In this document: positions 10,461 to 16,113 of the stretch, piece by piece
Layout: every line of letters starts with the position of its first letter
Numbering within the stretch: the stretch's first letter is position 1
Origin: an uncultured archaeon
GTDB taxonomy: Archaea > Asgardarchaeota > Thorarchaeia > Thorarchaeales > Thorarchaeaceae
DNA length: 39,680 bases
Assembly: GCA_964590575.1 (NCBI GenBank)
Contig: CAZPWM010000023.1
Location: 1 to 39,680 of the forward strand
Direction: 5' to 3'
The notes under the pieces: generated by a model
The model's database searches: none
What the model was told of the DNA's origin: nothing
The model's input: the letters and a program-made list of their open reading frames with translations, nothing else
Position numbers and translations under genes: made by a program

Positions 10461-12176
10461 TCAGATTGAGAAGTTTGCGAACACCGTAGCACCATTCTTC
10501 ATCGGACCGACGTATGCTCTCTCATAGGCTCCAAACAGGTCTGAGAAACCAGAGTTTATTGCCCACTCTATCCAAGCCCATGAAGATTCTTGACCAAGTT
10601 TGTTCTCTGCATATTGACCAAAAGCCCATGACAAATATCGTTCTACGTCTAGTTTCTGGAGTTGGAGTGTTTCAGTAGCCTTTCCTGAAGATTCCCCGAT
10701 TTTACTGCTGAGCTTTTCAAGACTGCCATTCAACGATTTGTGAGTTTCAAGAATCAGCTTTTTCAACTCAACAAGTTGGTCGTTCATTGCATCAAACTCA
10801 TTCTTTCTTCTAGCCTTCGCAATCGTACCCATTATACTGAACATTTCCTTTCGTTGAAGGACCTCAAAGTTCTGCTCTTCTAGACTCTTTGCTAGTTGTT
10901 CATTCCAAGGTGTGTTGAAGTAAACTCTAGGATATTTGATAAATTGTGGGAATGGTATCTCAATTGCTCTCGCGGATGGAATAACCTGAGCATAATATGC
11001 TGTTTCACCAGGACCTCCAATATGCGCCACAGTAGGAATTAAGGTGTCAATCAACGCCTGCCTAGAATCTACACGTGGTGATATTTGGTGAGCAATCTCA
11101 CCGAGATACGGACTGTCAGCAGAAGTTTCGATCTCGATAGATTCTAAACAAGATGGACACCTACCAGTCAAGAGAACTGTAGTTCCCAGGTCCTCATAGT
11201 GAAGTTCTGTTCGGCTCTTGTTGCATTTAGGATTAGTACATTCATAGAAGAAAGGCACATAATCCGGGCCTCTGAGCCCGATTCCAGGGTCATAACCCTT
11301 AGCAAGAATCAAATTCGTCATTTCATCGAAAGTCTTGAGGAACCGTTCTCTGTTTTTTCGTGCAAGTAGAAACTCCATGCCTTCTACGAGAAGCTCGCGG
11401 ATTTTTCTCTCCGATGCTGTCAATAGAGGAATGCCAAGATTGCCTATAACATTGAACAGATACCCCATAATCCTTTGTGCCCACTCTCCGAGGGATTCAG
11501 AATTGAAGAAAGAATGTCTGATTATAGTGAGTGACTGCTCAAGCCGCTCTTCGAATAACAAGCGTGCATGTCGTTCTAAATTCTTAAGCATTGGATGGTA
11601 GCTACTTCTGATATCAGCCTCTACCTGACTAAGCCAATCGCCATCTGGGAGGGGTAGTACACTTACTGGTGAATTTTCAAAACCCTGTGGAACTGGGAGG
11701 CTGATTAGATTGCCACCTTGACCCATTATTGGTGTTCGGATGTTTGTCAGCTCTGATTGTACAGTATCATAGTCTGCTACATAAAAGAAGGGTGTGAGAG
11801 GCACACCGTTCTCAGTAGCAAGGGACGCCACTTGTTTGGCAGTTATTGCCTTGTTTAGGATATATGCAGGACCACCCAGCACGACAGTCTGGTGAGCGGA
11901 TTCCACAGCTCCATGCTCGAGGTTGTCTATACTATCCCTGACCTTAGGTGTCAAGCAACCAAGTTTCTTGTTGGTTTCAGTAAGAACATCCTTGAGAATG
12001 TTTGTTCTCTCAGATATGTGCCACAACGTATCTTTGTACGATTTGAGAAGACTAGGAACTCTGCTAGCAAGTGTATCGAGAGTTAGTGGTGGTATACCAT
12101 ATAGCTTCTCAGCTAGGTCTGTATTCTGTCCATTCCAGATGAAATCTTCATAAATTTCGTAAACACTGGGTTTCAA
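10461..12176 (-). CDS. bshC: bacillithiol biosynthesis cysteine-adding enzyme BshC homolog
   Basis: GGPAYILNKAITA (cf. GGPLY..K), PFFYVADYD, ISPRV, HIGGPGETAYYAQ (cf. GGPGE.AY.AQ), YPR, helical C-terminal region; directly downstream of bshA. Confidence 0.85.
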   Translation of the reverse strand: MKPSVYEIYEDFIWNGQNTDLAEKLYGIPPLTLDTLASRVPSLLKSYKDTLWHISERTNILKDVLTETNKKLGCLTPKVRDSIDNLEHGAVESAHQTVVLGGPAYILNKAITAKQVASLATENGVPLTPFFYVADYDTVQSELTNIRTPIMGQGGNLISLPVPQGFENSPVSVLPLPDGDWLSQVEADIRSSYHPMLKNLERHARLLFEERLEQSLTIIRHSFFNSESLGEWAQRIMGYLFNVIGNLGIPLLTASERKIRELLVEGMEFLLARKNRERFLKTFDEMTNLILAKGYDPGIGLRGPDYVPFFYECTNPKCNKSRTELHYEDLGTTVLLTGRCPSCLESIEIETSADSPYLGEIAHQISPRVDSRQALIDTLIPTVAHIGGPGETAYYAQVIPSARAIEIPFPQFIKYPRVYFNTPWNEQLAKSLEEQNFEVLQRKEMFSIMGTIAKARRKNEFDAMNDQLVELKKLILETHKSLNGSLEKLSSKIGESSGKATETLQLQKLDVERYLSWAFGQYAENKLGQESSWAWIEWAINSGFSDLFGAYERAYVGPMKNGATVFANFSI

Positions 12177-12193
12177 GCCGAGTCACAATCCTC

Positions 12194-13357
12194 CTACTTG
12201 GATACTACATCTTCGAATACTTTCTCGTACATTTTTACAATACGCTCTGCAGAGAACGATTCTTCTACTCTCTTTCTCCCAGCTAGTCCTAGTTTCTTGC
12301 GTTTTGTATCATTCTCAAGCATCTCAATGACAACCTGTGCATACTCCTCTGACTCGAATCCATTGGTGACCATCCCATCCTTCCCTGGACGCACCAGCTC
12401 TGGAATACCTCCCGCTGGTGTGGTCACAACAGGAAGACCGCATGACATTGCTTCGAGTAGTACCAAAGGCATACCTTCCAAAGTGGAATTCATCAGGAAT
12501 AAGTCCACTGAACACATAATCTCCTGCATGTTGCTTTTTACGCCGAGTAGATGCACATTATTGCATAAGTCAAGAGCCTCAATCTTTCTCTCTACTTCAA
12601 TGCGAGTGGGACCATCGCCCGCAATGATCAGTCTGGTTTTTGGGTAGTGGTCGACCACGATTCTCATTATTTCAACGAGTTCAACTACACGCTTCACCTT
12701 GCGGAAATTAGATGCATGAAGGAGGATTCTCTCTTCAGGTTGTAACTCGACCACTTCCTCTGCCTTTCGAAGACCTACACAACCATTCTCAACATAAAGC
12801 CGCACACCATTGAGGTGCGAGAACTTAGATGTGTCTATAAAATTTGGAATAACGTGAATCTCCCGTTCAATCCCGAGTTCCTCATGAGCCTTCTTCATCA
12901 AGTACTCAGAGACAGCTGTGACTGCGTCTGCGTGTTCAACTGTGTATTGCACTACTGGTTTGTAAGCTGGGTCTTGTCCCAAAGTATGAACATCTGATCC
13001 GTGCAGGGTCACGACATAGGGTACGCCTATAATCTCTCTAGCCATGTATGCTGACATAGCATGAGGAATTGCATAGTGTGCATGTACAAGATCAAGTTTG
13101 GAATCCCTTGCGCACTTGATGATCTTAGACGTTAGAGCCATTGTGTATGGTGAACCTGTTTCTTTGAAGAGCGGATAATCAAAACTATCCACAAGGTCTA
13201 CATGAACTCCTTTCGTTTGCTCCCACATAAGAGAAAATGGTCTCTGATATGTGATGAAGTGGATAATGTGGTCTCTGCCTGCTAGCTCTTGACCTAGTCG
13301 TGTTGCTAGGTAGCCGCTACCACCCACTGTCGGATAAAGATTGACTCCAATCCTCAA
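12194..13357 (-). CDS. bshA: N-acetyl-alpha-D-glucosaminyl L-malate synthase (GT4)
   Basis: RIG..YPTVGGSG..AT.LG..LA, HFITY..PF, HAHYAIPHA, TLHGSD, HASNFRKVKR and E...LVLLEAM are BshA-specific. TTG start at 13357 (GTG at 13366 is an alternative). Confidence 0.92.
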   Translation of the reverse strand: MRIGVNLYPTVGGSGYLATRLGQELAGRDHIIHFITYQRPFSLMWEQTKGVHVDLVDSFDYPLFKETGSPYTMALTSKIIKCARDSKLDLVHAHYAIPHAMSAYMAREIIGVPYVVTLHGSDVHTLGQDPAYKPVVQYTVEHADAVTAVSEYLMKKAHEELGIEREIHVIPNFIDTSKFSHLNGVRLYVENGCVGLRKAEEVVELQPEERILLHASNFRKVKRVVELVEIMRIVVDHYPKTRLIIAGDGPTRIEVERKIEALDLCNNVHLLGVKSNMQEIMCSVDLFLMNSTLEGMPLVLLEAMSCGLPVVTTPAGGIPELVRPGKDGMVTNGFESEEYAQVVIEMLENDTKRKKLGLAGRKRVEESFSAERIVKMYEKVFEDVVSK

Positions 13358-13464
13358 GAAATACACCTTCTGTCCCCCTATGATGATTGCACCTTTAAGG
13401 CAAATGGTTTGGACAAGTGACGTGTTGCCAAACCTTGATTAGACTGCATTTGAAAGGTGATTCT

Positions 13465-14133
13465 ATGAGCGAATCGGATACAGGAACAATCCTCATGGTC
13501 GTAGCACATCCAGACGACGAGTCAATAGGTGCTGGAGGTACCATCAGGAAACACGTAGACCTAGGCGTGAAGGTTGACGTTCATTGTATGACTGGGAATG
13601 AAGAGCGAAATGAAGAGTTGAAAGCCGCCTGCGGACTCCTTGGAGTGAGAAGCCTGTACCTGAGCGAGCGTGACGATTTTTCTATTGGTGAAGAGCTCAC
13701 AAACGAGGTTATCGGAGCTATTTTGAAGTCTCGTCCTTCCATCATTATCACGCACCATTCTTCGGATTACAATCGCAACCACCAACAATGCGCAATGGTT
13801 GTGAACCAAGCTGTCGAATGGGCATCTCACACAACGGTCTTTGATGATGCACATAGGGTGGAACGCATCTACAATATGGAAATCAATACAATGATCTCCC
13901 GACCTAATGTTTATGTTGACATAACAGAGTCATATCCGGTCGCCCTAGCTGCTCTCAAGAAACATAAATCGCAGATCAAGAAAGCATGCTCTTTCTATGT
14001 GAATTTGTATGACGCTAGAACACAACTGCGTGGAGTTCAAGCAAATTGCAAAAGAGCAGAAGCCTTCTCAATCACTCTTACAGAACATGCTGGCCCCTTC
14101 TATGAAAGGAATAGTGTAGACAGTCTGATTTAA
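13465..14133 (+). CDS. bshB: PIG-L/LmbE family deacetylase, probable BshB
   Basis: AHPDDESIGAGG, VDIT...K..AL..HKSQ, RAEAF; divergent from bshA; ATG at 13465 follows AGGTGA. Confidence 0.8.
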   Translation: MSESDTGTILMVVAHPDDESIGAGGTIRKHVDLGVKVDVHCMTGNEERNEELKAACGLLGVRSLYLSERDDFSIGEELTNEVIGAILKSRPSIIITHHSSDYNRNHQQCAMVVNQAVEWASHTTVFDDAHRVERIYNMEINTMISRPNVYVDITESYPVALAALKKHKSQIKKACSFYVNLYDARTQLRGVQANCKRAEAFSITLTEHAGPFYERNSVDSLI

Positions 14134-14148
14134 TCGGAGAAATTATTC

Positions 14149-14550
14149 CTAGCCATCAGCTTTTCTTCTACGTGCTGCTAAGAGGGCTTTCAGTTCGCCC
14201 ATCATGCTCATACCGCCGCCCGGAGCTCCTCCTGCTGGCTTTGGAGTAGGGGCTCTTGCCATTGTCGGGATTGGTCCTCCGCCTACAGCTTGAGATGCCG
14301 CTGATGGTTCTCCTGCAGCTGCCGCGGGACCACGAGCTGCCATTGATGACATCCTGCTTTCCAAAGCATCTACTTTACTCTCTAAATCCATGACAGAAAT
14401 CTGAAGATGGGTTATAGCCTCGGTCAGTTTAGTAGTAATTATACTGATAACTTCACCGAGTTGCCGGATTTTCTCTTCGTTTGGATCTTTTAGAGCCCAT
14501 TCGAATTCTTCCATGATTTCTGCTTCAAGCTCTTTCTTCTCATCCGGCAT
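14149..14550 (-). CDS. hypothetical coiled-coil/Pro-Gly-Ala protein with C-terminal Ena/VASP FAB-like motif
   Basis: ATG at 14550 after a GGGGT RBS; heptads in LTEAITHLQISVMDLESKVDALESRMS; tail GGGMSMMGELKALLAARRRKADG. Confidence 0.8.
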   Translation of the reverse strand: MPDEKKELEAEIMEEFEWALKDPNEEKIRQLGEVISIITTKLTEAITHLQISVMDLESKVDALESRMSSMAARGPAAAAGEPSAASQAVGGGPIPTMARAPTPKPAGGAPGGGMSMMGELKALLAARRRKADG

Positions 14551-14628
14551 GATTTTTACCCCGTAGTTCAAAATGTGTTGATGCGTTTTCGCTATAAACA
14601 TTGTCTGCATAAGAACGATTGTCTAAAA

Positions 14629-16005
14629 TTAGGCTGAGGCTATTGTAACCCTCACTACCTCTTCAGTTGACCGGAGGATCTTCTTCACAATATCTTCTGT
14701 GGGGCCCTCACATGTTATTCTAATCACAGGCTCAGTCCCTGAAGGCCTGACAAGCACCCATCCTTGCGTCAGTGTGATTCCCAGGCCATCGATCGTCAGG
14801 ATTTCCTTCACATCACTCAAATTCTTTGGGAGGTCCTCAGTAAGTGCCTTCATTACACTCTGCTTCTTTTCATTTCCACACTCTATCTTAGCCTGGAGTA
14901 GTGGGTACTGTGGAATGGTCTTAATCAAATCTCCAAACGTCTTTCCGGTCGACGCCATCAGTTCAAGGACCTTGCAGGCTGCGAGAAACGGTTCAGGGGC
15001 GAGATGCATGTCAGGGAAGATAAACACTCCACAAGCTTCTCCTCCCATGATTCCTTTTGATTCGACGACTTTGATAGCTACCTGAATGTCTCCCACCGGC
15101 GTTCGCACGGTGTTACCACCAGCCTTCTTGACGGTTTCATCCAGAACAAGTGAACTATCAACAGTCGTAACCACTGTCTGACTCTTGGATGTTTCTAATG
15201 CTTGCTGTGCAAGATGGGCGTTCGTTCGGTCCCCTATAATTATGTCTCCCTGCTCATTTAAAAAAACGACCCTGTCCGCATCCCCATCGTGTGCAATTCC
15301 TAGATCCGCTCCAGTTTTCTTGATCATCTGTATGAGGTCTCCAAGAGAATCTTCATCAGGTTCAGAGCGCCGTCCAGGAAAGTGTCCATCTAATTGACCG
15401 TTTAAGGTCACGACTTGACAATTGAGCTGCTGCATCAAATATGGTGTGTGCACGCAGGCTGCGCCATTTCCAGGATCGACAATCACTCTGAATGATTTTG
15501 ATCTAATGGCTTCAGCATCGCATCTCTCAAGGAGCGCTTCGATATGTTCGTCAACAGCACTCTCAATCCGCGTTTCCTTCCCCAATGCATCCCAGCTAGC
15601 TACTTTGAAATTCTTGGAATTGTAAATCTCCTCCAGCTTTGTTTCTTCCCTGAGTGTAAATCCCATGCTATTCCGGGACCAAAACTTCACTCCTGTATAC
15701 TGAGGTGGATTGTGAGATGCTGTGACCATGAGCCCTGCATCGAAGCCATGCTTCATCGTGATGAATGCAAGGGTCGGAGTTGGAATAATACCTGCACGTA
15801 CTACATTGATCCCTGTTGACAGAACTCCTGCAGTCAAGGCATCTGCCACCATGAGTCCGGTGGTGCGAGCATCTCGCGCAATTATGACTGTTCCTTCACC
15901 CAGGTATGTCCCTAAAGACTTGCCAAGATTGAGCGCCATCTCTAGGTCAAATTCCTCACCATAGACCTTTCTTACGCCTGTTGTTCCAAAGAGTTTTCCA
16001 GTCAT
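14629..16005 (-). CDS. glmM: phosphoglucosamine mutase / phosphohexomutase
   Basis: LFGTTGVR, catalytic TASHNP, metal-binding DGDADR, GGE, VRPSGTEP. The exact sugar-phosphate specificity is uncertain. Confidence 0.85.
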   Translation of the reverse strand: MTGKLFGTTGVRKVYGEEFDLEMALNLGKSLGTYLGEGTVIIARDARTTGLMVADALTAGVLSTGINVVRAGIIPTPTLAFITMKHGFDAGLMVTASHNPPQYTGVKFWSRNSMGFTLREETKLEEIYNSKNFKVASWDALGKETRIESAVDEHIEALLERCDAEAIRSKSFRVIVDPGNGAACVHTPYLMQQLNCQVVTLNGQLDGHFPGRRSEPDEDSLGDLIQMIKKTGADLGIAHDGDADRVVFLNEQGDIIIGDRTNAHLAQQALETSKSQTVVTTVDSSLVLDETVKKAGGNTVRTPVGDIQVAIKVVESKGIMGGEACGVFIFPDMHLAPEPFLAACKVLELMASTGKTFGDLIKTIPQYPLLQAKIECGNEKKQSVMKALTEDLPKNLSDVKEILTIDGLGITLTQGWVLVRPSGTEPVIRITCEGPTEDIVKKILRSTEEVVRVTIASA

Positions 16006-16113
16006 GGGGGTCACTGTTTTACTCGCTGCAGATTCAGAGAAAAAGATACCTACTGATGAAAGTGATTTCGAGCAACAAACCTCTATATTGTGAGTTCCAG
16101 TATATTGAACATA

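What the first reader, a model, noticed from the sequence alone, without database searches (positions are those of the whole stretch)
14149..14550. Orphan archaeal protein ending in an Ena/VASP-like F-actin-binding motif: candidate Asgard actin bundler or elongation factor
Seen in sequence: a 133-aa protein with an acidic N-helix, a heptad coiled coil (LTEAITHLQISVMDLESKVDALESRMS), a disordered Ala/Gly/Pro linker (GPAAAAGEPS...GGGPIPTMARAPTPKPAGGAPGG) and a terminal helix GGGMSMMGELKALLAARRRKA (14158-14220). Established knowledge, quoted from memory: the EVH2 F-actin-binding (FAB) segment of human VASP reads GGGGLMEEMNAMLARRRKA and that of EVL GGGLMEEMNKLLAKRRKA. The Gly run, M-x-E-phi, LL/ML-A and basic RRRK pattern are all shared. 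Ena/VASP also combines an oligomerising coiled coil, a Pro-rich linker and this actin-binding helix, although the order is rearranged here. Inference: in a probable Asgard genome (the group encodes actin, profilin and gelsolins), this could be a minimal oligomeric actin-binding or bundling protein. I do not know of such a family being described in prokaryotes. The motif is short, so convergence or chance is possible.
Basis: partly seen in the sequence, partly recalled or inferred. Interest (0 to 1): 0.9.

Follow-up and report, generated by a model that had tools for sequence, protein, structure and literature searches.

The report
Asgard coiled-coil protein, VASP-like tail
This small Thorarchaeota gene belongs to an undescribed protein family found across Asgard archaea; its near-invariant end helix resembles the filament-binding motif of animal VASP and also ends many Asgard GTPases, so it is a testable but unproven candidate actin or membrane adaptor.

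Summary
It is not an orphan. It belongs to an undescribed family that matched 302 of 400 Asgard genomes at E<=0.01, with no Pfam, NCBIfam or solved-structure relative.

The architecture holds across the phylum: N-terminal helix, heptad coiled coil, disordered arm, C-terminal basic helix with an invariant E-L-K core. The arm carries PPP+ runs in 14 of 17 non-Thor members, but not in this protein.

It scores 22 bits on a pan-Asgard tail matrix. None of 200,000 shuffles reached that score, and neither did any of 986,029 other windows of this genome.

Not supported:
- There is no WH2 match, no EVH1 domain, and the domain order is reversed relative to VASP.
- There is no synteny with actin genes.
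- The family is not named among the Lokiactin co-IP proteins in a paper's main text.

The same coil-arm-tail module ends many Lokiarchaeial Arf/Rag-like GTPases (13 of 15 ORFs examined), so it is a portable targeting unit.

Actin binding is the leading single reading (about 0.3). Membrane binding and another protein hub are close rivals. The actin-tail complex prediction was not folded. This scan has reported the family before on other DNA.

The parts
14149..14550 (-). CDS of the 133-aa family member (stop TAG at 14149-14151)
   Evidence: The start at 14550 is supported by 22 of 25 relatives beginning at the same M-P/S-D-E position. A GGGGT sits 8-12 nt upstream of the ATG (read).
14488..14547 (-). 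N-terminal acidic helix (residues 2-21) with the invariant F-E-W-x-L-x-D-P head
   Evidence: Helix 2-21 in the AF2 model. F16, E17, W18, L20, D22 and P23 are invariant in 17 diverse Thor-type members.
14317..14478 (-). Long helix (residues 25-78). The heptad coiled coil runs from L42 to M70 (14341-14427), with I/V/V/M at a positions and L/L/L/L/M at d positions
   Evidence: Helix 25-78 at pLDDT 79-89. The heptad register is my reading of the sequence. Profile hits to solved coiled coils only.
14212..14316 (-). Disordered Ala/Gly/Pro arm (residues 79-113), with no PPP run in this protein
   Evidence: pLDDT<50 for residues 76-113. Length and sequence are variable in the alignments. PPP+ runs occur in 3 of 16 Thor-type and 14 of 17 other members.
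14236..14271 (-). Thor-conserved I-P-T-M-x-x-A-P-x-P-x-P block inside the arm (residues 94-105); function unknown
   Evidence: I94, T96, M97, A100, P101 and P103 are invariant in 25 Thor sequences. The block is not conserved outside Thor.
14158..14211 (-). C-terminal basic helix ('ELK tail', residues 114-131)
   Evidence: M116 to K130 is nearly invariant in 25 Thor sequences. E-L-K is invariant in 18 tails from across the phylum. Helix 116-132.

Best explanation
The gene encodes a member of an undescribed, Asgard-wide family of small self-associating adaptors. A helical head plus heptad coiled coil pairs the chains; the a/d residues suggest a parallel dimer, which is inference. Each chain then carries a flexible arm ending in a near-invariant basic helix.

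My preferred mechanism is that the end helix docks on Lokiactin in the manner of the Ena/VASP F-actin-binding (FAB) block. The oligomer would then present two or more weak filament-binding helices and tether or bundle filaments. In lineages where the same module ends Arf/Rag-like GTPases, it would place those GTPases on filaments.

Shown here: the family, its architecture, its conservation, its Asgard range, the motif-level likeness to FAB, and the portability of the module. Inferred: the oligomer state, the partner and the activity. I do not claim a full VASP-like polymerase, because this Thor protein has no profilin-type polyproline and no G-actin (WH2) site.
For: 1) The tail is the best-conserved part of the protein. 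The E-L-K core is invariant in 18 tails from 18 loci across the phylum, while the arm varies freely. Such fixed polar residues suggest a specific protein surface. Lokiactin is comparably conserved: 72-95% identity to the window genome's actin in 12 genomes.
2) Human VASP FAB, as printed in PMC10340426, scores 22.05 bits on the tail matrix. None of 200,000 shuffles reached it, and 0 of 986,029 other windows of this genome did. The iid P is 1.8e-8 per window.
3) FAB function depends on its RRRK cluster and on tetramerisation; monomer and dimer showed no F-actin binding (PMC3003327 passages). The family pairs the same kind of basic helix with a coiled coil.
4) Range: 302 of 400 Asgard genomes at E<=0.01, and 71 of 90 high-quality ones. 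Only 12 representatives at E<=1e-3 were found among 1.84 billion proteins; the named cluster members are Thorarchaeota. The nearest ESM Atlas clusters are Thorarchaeota and Promethearchaeota.
5) 14 of 17 non-Thor members carry PPP+ runs up to 5 long and GPP/PPG repeats.
6) The genome has actin (435 bits), a profilin and gelsolins.
7) One protein carries three tail-like copies, as actin-binding short motifs often do; that comparison is recalled.
Against: 1) There is no direct test, because the actin-tail complex was not folded.
2) About half of the FAB score (11.2 of 22 bits) comes from the basic cluster. The family's invariant Leu and Lys columns are not matched by FAB (-0.5 and -1.4 bits).
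3) Pfam WH2 does not hit the window protein at E<=10 or 9 other proteins at E<=1 (3 family members, 6 tail-bearing). No WH2-bearing solved chain matches the tail profile at E<=10.
4) The same module ends Arf/Gtr1-RagA-type GTPases: 13 of 15 P-loop ORFs in L121-L132. GTPase end pieces are usually membrane anchors (established knowledge).
5) Neighbouring genes are unrelated to actin: bshC-bshA, bshB and glmM in 5 of 5 f1 loci; Elf1-like, hexapeptide-repeat or an unknown coiled-coil gene elsewhere.
6) The main text of the Lokiactin co-IP study names Lokiactin, one profilin, five gelsolins and an ARF GTPase as enriched, and no such coiled-coil protein (PMC13716822 passages). Its Supplementary Table 2 could not be seen.
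7) Loki and Odin profilins are reported not to bind VASP polyproline, while Thor and Heimdall profilins bind it weakly (PMC8410842 passages). That is the reverse of where the polyproline arms occur.
8) Ena/VASP is not pan-eukaryotic (recalled), so any likeness would be convergent.
Confidence: 0.3

Rival explanations
1. Membrane anchor. The basic end helix binds anionic archaeal membranes, like the polybasic or amphipathic ends of small GTPases, septins, MinD or FtsA. The family would be a membrane-tethered coiled-coil scaffold, and the arm a spacer.
For: The helix sits at the extreme C-terminus after a flexible arm, with net charge +3 to +4. The same module ends Arf/Gtr1-RagA-type GTPases in many Lokiarchaeial genomes: 13 of 15 ORFs, and GTPase homologues in 135 of 135 f22 and 14 of 14 f21 genomes. 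The co-IP authors note that their method under-represents membrane-associated proteins (preprint 10.1101/2025.11.30.690169, section 9). A polyproline arm works as a stiff spacer without profilin.
Against: The hydrophobic moment is only moderate (0.25-0.33) and mean hydrophobicity is low (0.22-0.25). An invariant Glu and a fixed E-L-K triplet across the phylum are unusual for helices selected only for amphipathicity; this is inference. A tail-like motif also lies inside a protein that already has a C-terminal hydrophobic stretch that looks like a membrane span (my reading of the sequence; L063).
Confidence: 0.27
2. Docking helix for another conserved Asgard hub protein, for example a GTPase regulator, ESCRT or Vps4, a tubulin/FtsZ-type filament or a chaperone. 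The family would be a bivalent adaptor, and the likeness to FAB only shared helix chemistry.
For: Sequence-specific conservation of the tail. Portability of the module onto GTPases and onto one HEAT-repeat protein, plus tail-like copies in two further proteins. No link to actin genes by synteny. The family is not named in the co-IP main text.
Against: No candidate partner emerged. The tail does not fit the MIM1 spacing (my reading against the recalled consensus). There is no conserved neighbour across classes. The FAB match is stronger than any other window in the genome.
Confidence: 0.25
3. Self-interaction. The tail folds back on, or binds in trans to, the family's own conserved head and coiled coil. 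This would give auto-inhibition or head-to-tail polymers, as in ESCRT-III or Vipp1-type proteins.
For: In the GTPase and HEAT fusions the tail travels with the helical module, not alone. Head and tail are the two most conserved parts. There is a weak profile hit to archaeal CdvB2 (E=0.015), among many coiled-coil hits.
Against: Tail-like motifs also occur without the head (L063, L067). There is no Snf7 or PspA family hit for the protein. The tail's pLDDT is only 53-69 (means of 10-residue blocks) in the monomer model.
Confidence: 0.08
4. The FAB likeness is coincidence, and the protein is a generic coiled-coil structural protein without a specific tail partner.
For: The motif is short and half the score is a basic cluster. 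The comparison was made after the fact.
Against: The tail is near-invariant across hundreds of genomes and is reused on other proteins.
Confidence: 0.05

Closest known systems
Ena/VASP EVH2 region: F-actin-binding block (human VASP 259-278) plus oligomerising coiled coil (PMC10340426, PMC3003327)
   Same: Both have a Gly run followed by a short helix with the pattern h-M-x-E-h-x-x-h-h-A and then four basic residues. The FAB scores 22 bits on the family's tail matrix, and 7 of 16 residues are identical to the window's tail in the ungapped register. Both have a self-associating coiled coil, and the other Asgard lineages add a Pro-rich region.
   Different: There is no EVH1 domain and no WH2-like G-actin site. 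The coil is N-terminal and heptad-type, not the C-terminal VASP tetramerisation domain. This Thor protein has no PPP run. No homology is detectable.
C-terminal modules of Lokiarchaeial Arf/Gtr1-RagA-type GTPases (unnamed; e.g. L072:1495-2433:-, and ORFs in L121-L132)
   Same: These are true relatives of the module. They carry a helical stretch, an arm and the same tail at the extreme C-terminus ([ED]-E-L-K-x-[LIV]-[FL] followed by basic residues). 13 of 15 ORFs have it, 11 of them at 15 bits or more.
   Different: They carry an N-terminal GTPase domain (Gtr1_RagA 75.7 bits, Arf 73 bits). None was found in 85 genomes of Thor family f1 with this query at E<=1e-25. In three single-contig f21 genomes only 1 of 26 GTPase ORFs has the tail.
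WH2 motifs (Pfam PF02205; thymosin, WASP, gelsolin-linker type; the Asgard 2DGel LRRV/LKDV motif in PMC7444086 and the preprint of PMC13716822)
   Same: A short amphipathic helix followed by basic residues, on a flexible arm next to Pro-rich sequence.
   Different: There is no L-K-K-V-type motif and no Pfam WH2 hit. No WH2-bearing solved chain matches the tail profile at E<=10.
Terminal membrane-targeting helices and polybasic ends (small-GTPase hypervariable region, septin amphipathic helix, MinD/FtsA; recalled, not from a call)
   Same: A flexible linker followed by a terminal basic amphipathic helix, also found on GTPases.
   Different: The tail has a fixed E-L-K core and only a moderate hydrophobic moment.
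Bacterial Ena/VASP mimics such as Burkholderia BimA (recalled, not from a call)
   Same: An oligomeric coiled coil combined with Pro-rich sequence and short actin-binding helices in a prokaryote.
   Different: BimA is a surface autotransporter that acts on host actin. No sequence relation was tested here.

Membership tests
Ena/VASP | N-terminal EVH1 (WH1) domain | tested here: not met
   No WH1 hit at E<=10 in Pfam. The whole protein is 133 aa of helix, arm and helix.
Ena/VASP | Central proline-rich region that binds profilin | tested here: not met
   The window protein has 0 PPP runs. 3 of 16 Thor-type and 14 of 17 other members have them. Binding to profilin was not tested.
Ena/VASP | G-actin-binding WH2-like block (GAB) | tested here: not met
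   No WH2 hit, and no second helix in the arm.
Ena/VASP | F-actin-binding block (FAB) with a basic RRRK cluster | tested here: inconclusive
   The motif-level likeness is strong: 22.05 bits, 0 of 200,000 shuffles, 0 of 986,029 other windows. However, two invariant family columns are unmatched, and function was not tested.
Ena/VASP | C-terminal tetramerisation coiled coil (VASP_tetra) | tested here: not met
   No Pfam hit. The coil is N-terminal with a canonical heptad (sequence).
WH2 motif (PF02205) | Amphipathic helix followed by an LKKV-type motif, recognised by the Pfam model | tested here: not met
   No hit for the window protein at E<=10 or for 3 other family members and 6 tail-bearing proteins at E<=1. 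The tail profile finds no WH2 chain in the PDB at E<=10.
ESCRT-III / PspA-Vipp1 superfamily | Helical hairpin core recognised by the Snf7 or PspA models | tested here: not met
   No Snf7 or PspA hit at E<=10. 0 NCBIfam families. CdvB2 appears at E=0.015, but only among generic coiled-coil hits.
Membrane-targeting amphipathic helix | High hydrophobic moment and hydrophobicity with a basic interface | tested here: inconclusive
   muH 0.25-0.33, mean H 0.22-0.25, z +3 to +4. Lipid binding is not testable here.
Undescribed pan-Asgard 'ELK-tail' coiled-coil family (defined here) | N-helix, coiled coil, variable arm, and C-terminal x-h-h-x-E-L-K-x-h-[LF] followed by a basic cluster | tested here: met
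   213.8 bits against the family profile.

The most novel reading that the evidence does not exclude
Asgard archaea possess a pre-eukaryotic oligomeric actin-filament tether or assembly factor built on the same logic as Ena/VASP: a self-associating coil, a proline-rich arm and a FAB-like basic helix. The same FAB-like tail would also place a large family of Arf/Rag-like GTPases directly on Lokiactin filaments. This would be a GTPase-to-actin coupling older than eukaryotes.
Probability: 0.25. Interest if true: 0.9.

Novelty: new variant of a known kind. Interest (0 to 1): 0.6.

Why it matters
Only profilins and gelsolins are established Asgard actin regulators. The papers read here say no formin or Ena/VASP-type factor is known for Asgard motility (PMC13716822 passages).

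This family is near-universal in Asgard archaea, highly conserved and of unknown function, and it carries a portable tail shared with Arf/Rag-like GTPases. That makes it a concrete, cheap-to-test candidate for one of two things: a missing filament tether or assembly factor, or the way Asgard GTPases, which lack lipid anchors, reach their site of action. Either answer bears on how cytoskeleton-membrane coupling arose before eukaryotes.

I found no description of the family in four literature searches; a fifth, unfocused search listed nothing relevant. Supplementary tables could not be seen.

Tried and rejected
- Complex prediction of Thor actin (alignment A4) with tail residues 88-133 (alignment A5): not folded, so no verdict. 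I did not try it any other way.
- Single-sequence and tail-only searches of solved structures: only coiled coils, or nothing. The family profile found generic, mostly trimeric coiled coils. The tail profile found one designed peptide.
- Pfam and NCBIfam: nothing above threshold. Sub-threshold CCDC53, BLOC1_2 and Syntaxin hits on a Loki member read as coiled-coil noise.
- Big-database search of the tail region among longer proteins: 1 hit at E<=10 among 158 candidates. It is a read-through of glmM into the family gene on a 2,127-nt contig. No Ena/VASP protein surfaced, which says little for a 40-residue query.
- Profile search with A5: 327 hits at E<=0.001 among 8,000 scored candidates, but the 120 listed rows are all Thor-type. 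It therefore adds nothing on range outside Asgard.
- Synteny: no conserved actin-related neighbour.
- MIM1 (Vps4-binding) reading of the tail: the spacing does not fit the recalled consensus.
- WAVE, Brick1 or WASH likeness of the head: no hit in the PDB or Pfam searches.
- RNA: two 151-nt contigs of one metatranscriptome library, 90-97% alike, cover 14251-14401 and 14408-14555. DNA carry-over cannot be excluded, so this is only a weak hint of expression in a relative.
- I did not test the oligomer state, and I ran no fold search, because a model of lone helices would not be informative.

Full report
**Observation.** The minus-strand ORF at 14149-14550 encodes the 133-aa protein exactly as quoted. 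A longer reading from an upstream ATG (153 aa) is unlikely. 22 of 25 aligned relatives begin at the same M-P/S-D-E position, and the three extensions are unrelated to each other.

An AlphaFold2 model built on 17 relatives gives helices 2-21, 25-78 and 116-132, with an arm of pLDDT<50 at residues 76-113. From L42 to M70 the sequence follows a canonical heptad, with I/V/V/M at a positions and L/L/L/L/M at d positions. By the usual rules this favours a parallel dimer. That is inference and was not tested.

**Not an orphan.** A word-indexed search found 303 proteins at E<=1 among 638 candidates. The listed ones are 62-100% identical, and every organism name given by a source is Thorarchaeota or Promethearchaeota, except one partial protein filed under Bathyarchaeota. 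An exhaustive phmmer scan of 1.84 billion cluster representatives found 12 at E<=1e-3 and 9 at E<=1e-10. The named cluster members are Thorarchaeota.

A profile of 17 diverse members matched 302 of 400 Asgard genomes at E<=0.01, and 71 of 90 high-quality genomes. By family the counts were 79 of 85 in the window's own family, 119 of 135 in f22, 11 of 14 in f21 and 17 of 19 in f14. Some families were weak or absent: f8 13 of 31, f11 4 of 22, f13 1 of 12 and f29 0 of 4. Even an E=1e-4 match (G002) proved to have the full architecture.

Pfam, NCBIfam and solved structures give no family. Only sub-threshold coiled-coil matches appear. The nearest ESM Atlas clusters are unnamed Thorarchaeota and Promethearchaeota proteins.

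**Anatomy across the phylum.** All 33 aligned members share four parts: a short N-terminal helix, a long heptad helix, a variable arm and a C-terminal helix.

In Thor-type sequences the head (F-E-W-x-L-x-D-P) and the tail (M-M-G-E-L-K-x-L-L-A-A-R-R-R/K-K) are invariant or nearly so, while the arm drifts. In other lineages the tail reads P-x-S-x-R-x-a-I-M-G/D-E-L-K-x-L-F-x-K/R-R, and E-L-K is invariant in 18 tails.

The arm is proline-rich there. 14 of 17 non-Thor members have PPP+ runs (up to five prolines, plus GPP/PPG repeats), against 3 of 16 Thor-type members. The window protein has none. One short member has almost no arm (P0129).

**The VASP comparison.** TIRF work shows that FAB function needs its RRRK cluster, and that monomeric or dimeric VASP did not bind filaments while the tetramer did (PMC3003327, passages).

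I built a 16-column weighted matrix from the 33 tails. The FAB scores 22.05 bits, against 33-42 bits for true tails. None of 200,000 shuffles of the peptide reached it (maximum 21.9). Among 986,030 windows of 3,529 ORFs of this genome, only the family's own tail did; the next best was 17.3. The exact iid probability is 1.8e-8 per window.

So the likeness is real at the motif level. It has limits:
- 11.2 of the 22 bits come from the four basic residues.
- The family's invariant Leu and Lys are not matched by FAB.
- The comparison was chosen after the fact.
- Ena/VASP is not pan-eukaryotic (recalled), so common descent is unlikely.

Pfam WH2 does not hit any of 10 proteins tested. The tail profile finds no WH2-bearing chain among 177,635 solved sequences at E<=10.

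**A portable module.** A tail-only profile searched in five complete or near-complete genomes found the family member in each. It also found:
- a 705-aa ORF with an internal tail-like motif after a Pro run (E=1.3e-8);
- a 310-aa ORF with three tail-like copies;
- a HEAT-repeat protein ending in the whole module;
- tandem 383-389-aa proteins whose N-terminal parts are Arf/Gtr1-RagA-type GTPases (73 and 75.7 bits) and whose C-terminal parts are the helix-arm-tail module.

Homologues of that GTPase occur in 190 of 400 Asgard genomes at E<=1e-25. The counts are 135 of 135 in f22, 14 of 14 in f21, 26 of 31 in f8, and 0 of 85 in the window's family.

In 12 fetched loci, 13 of 15 P-loop ORFs end in the tail within 10 residues of the C-terminus, 11 of them at 15 bits or more. 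In three single-contig f21 genomes only 1 of 26 GTPase ORFs does. This confirms a lead from earlier notes of this scan.

It cuts both ways. A shared terminal signal on GTPases is most simply a membrane or hub address. Yet the fixed E-L-K core and the modest amphipathicity (muH 0.25-0.33) look more like a protein-docking motif than a lipid-binding helix.

**Context.** In 5 of 5 loci of the window's family the order is bshC-like, bshA, bshB-like (divergent), the family gene, then archaeal glmM. One contig even reads glmM through into the family gene. In f21 the upstream gene is Elf1-like and the downstream genes are hexapeptide-repeat proteins. In f22 a 206-aa unknown coiled-coil protein lies upstream. 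Nothing actin-related is linked.

The genome does encode Lokiactin-type actin, a profilin and gelsolins. Two contigs from one metatranscriptome library, 90-97% alike, cover most of the ORF. This is a weak hint of expression in a relative.

**Literature.** Four searches found no description of this family, and a fifth, unfocused one listed nothing relevant.

The Lokiactin co-IP study names Lokiactin, one profilin, five gelsolin-homology proteins and an ARF GTPase as enriched. It says Ena/VASP-type polymerases are part of the more complex eukaryotic machinery (PMC13716822 passages; preprint section 9 read whole). Its full protein list is in a supplementary table that I could not see. I can therefore say only that the family is not named in the main text.

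Loki and Odin profilins are reported not to bind VASP polyproline, while Heimdall and Thor profilins bind it weakly, at 0.3-3.3 mM for Heimdall (PMC8410842 passages). This is the opposite of where polyproline arms occur in this family, and it argues against a profilin-fed polymerase.

**Verdict.** The feature is real and conserved, and I found no published description of it. It is not a member of Ena/VASP or of the WH2 class.

It may still work like the FAB-plus-oligomeriser half of VASP. I give that about 0.3. The rivals are a membrane anchor (0.27), another hub (0.25), self-interaction (0.08) and coincidence (0.05).

The one computation that could have moved these odds, the actin-tail complex, was not folded. 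The scan has reported this family several times on other DNA. My tests agree with most of those notes. They disagree with the note that judged the FAB likeness no better than chance.

Noticed in passing
window 10461-14133: A bacillithiol-type gene set lies next to the finding. BshA is above NCBIfam's cut-off (377.8 against 273.7 bits). The BshC-like protein (77.8 against 265.8) and the BshB1-like protein (81.6 against 182.5) are far below it, so they are divergent archaeal forms. The order is conserved in 5 of 5 loci of the same family.
   Followed up: partly
window 14629-16014 (-); P0156: Archaeal GlmM (521 bits) lies directly upstream on the same strand. On another 2,127-nt contig the glmM frame reads through the spacer into the family gene, giving a 472-aa fusion. 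This is a lost stop codon or an assembly or gene-calling artefact.
   Followed up: partly
L067:1315-2208:- (G128): A 298-310-aa protein with Cys-rich stretches that look like a zinc ribbon (my reading of the sequence; Pfam gave no zinc-ribbon hit) carries three tail-like motifs: at the N-terminus, internally and at the C-terminus. This repeat arrangement is reminiscent of multi-WH2 proteins.
   Followed up: no
L063:685-2775:+ (G143): A 697-705-aa protein has long acidic and Pro-rich disordered regions, an internal Pro-run plus tail-like motif (E=1.3e-8), and a C-terminal hydrophobic stretch that looks like a membrane span (my reading). It has no Pfam family.
   Followed up: no
L070:1492-2559:- (G128): A HEAT-repeat and winged-helix-like protein ends in the complete helix-coil-arm-tail module.
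   Followed up: no
L041:85-447:- and L041:599-973:- (G124): Two tandem paralogues of the family lie on one contig.
   Followed up: no
L108:5242-5859:+ and equivalents: A conserved 206-aa helical protein lies directly upstream on the same strand in 8 of 8 loci of f22 and of f21 genus g53. It has only a sub-threshold PspA/IM30 hit (16.2 bits, cut-off 33.9).
   Followed up: partly
L102:6459-10751:+ (G138): Four tandem hexapeptide-repeat (left-handed beta-helix) paralogues of 304-400 aa lie downstream of the family gene. The same cluster follows it in the other two f21 single-contig genomes.
   Followed up: no
window 14251-14555: Two 151-nt contigs from one sediment metatranscriptome library match at 90-97%. 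DNA carry-over is not excluded.
   Followed up: partly
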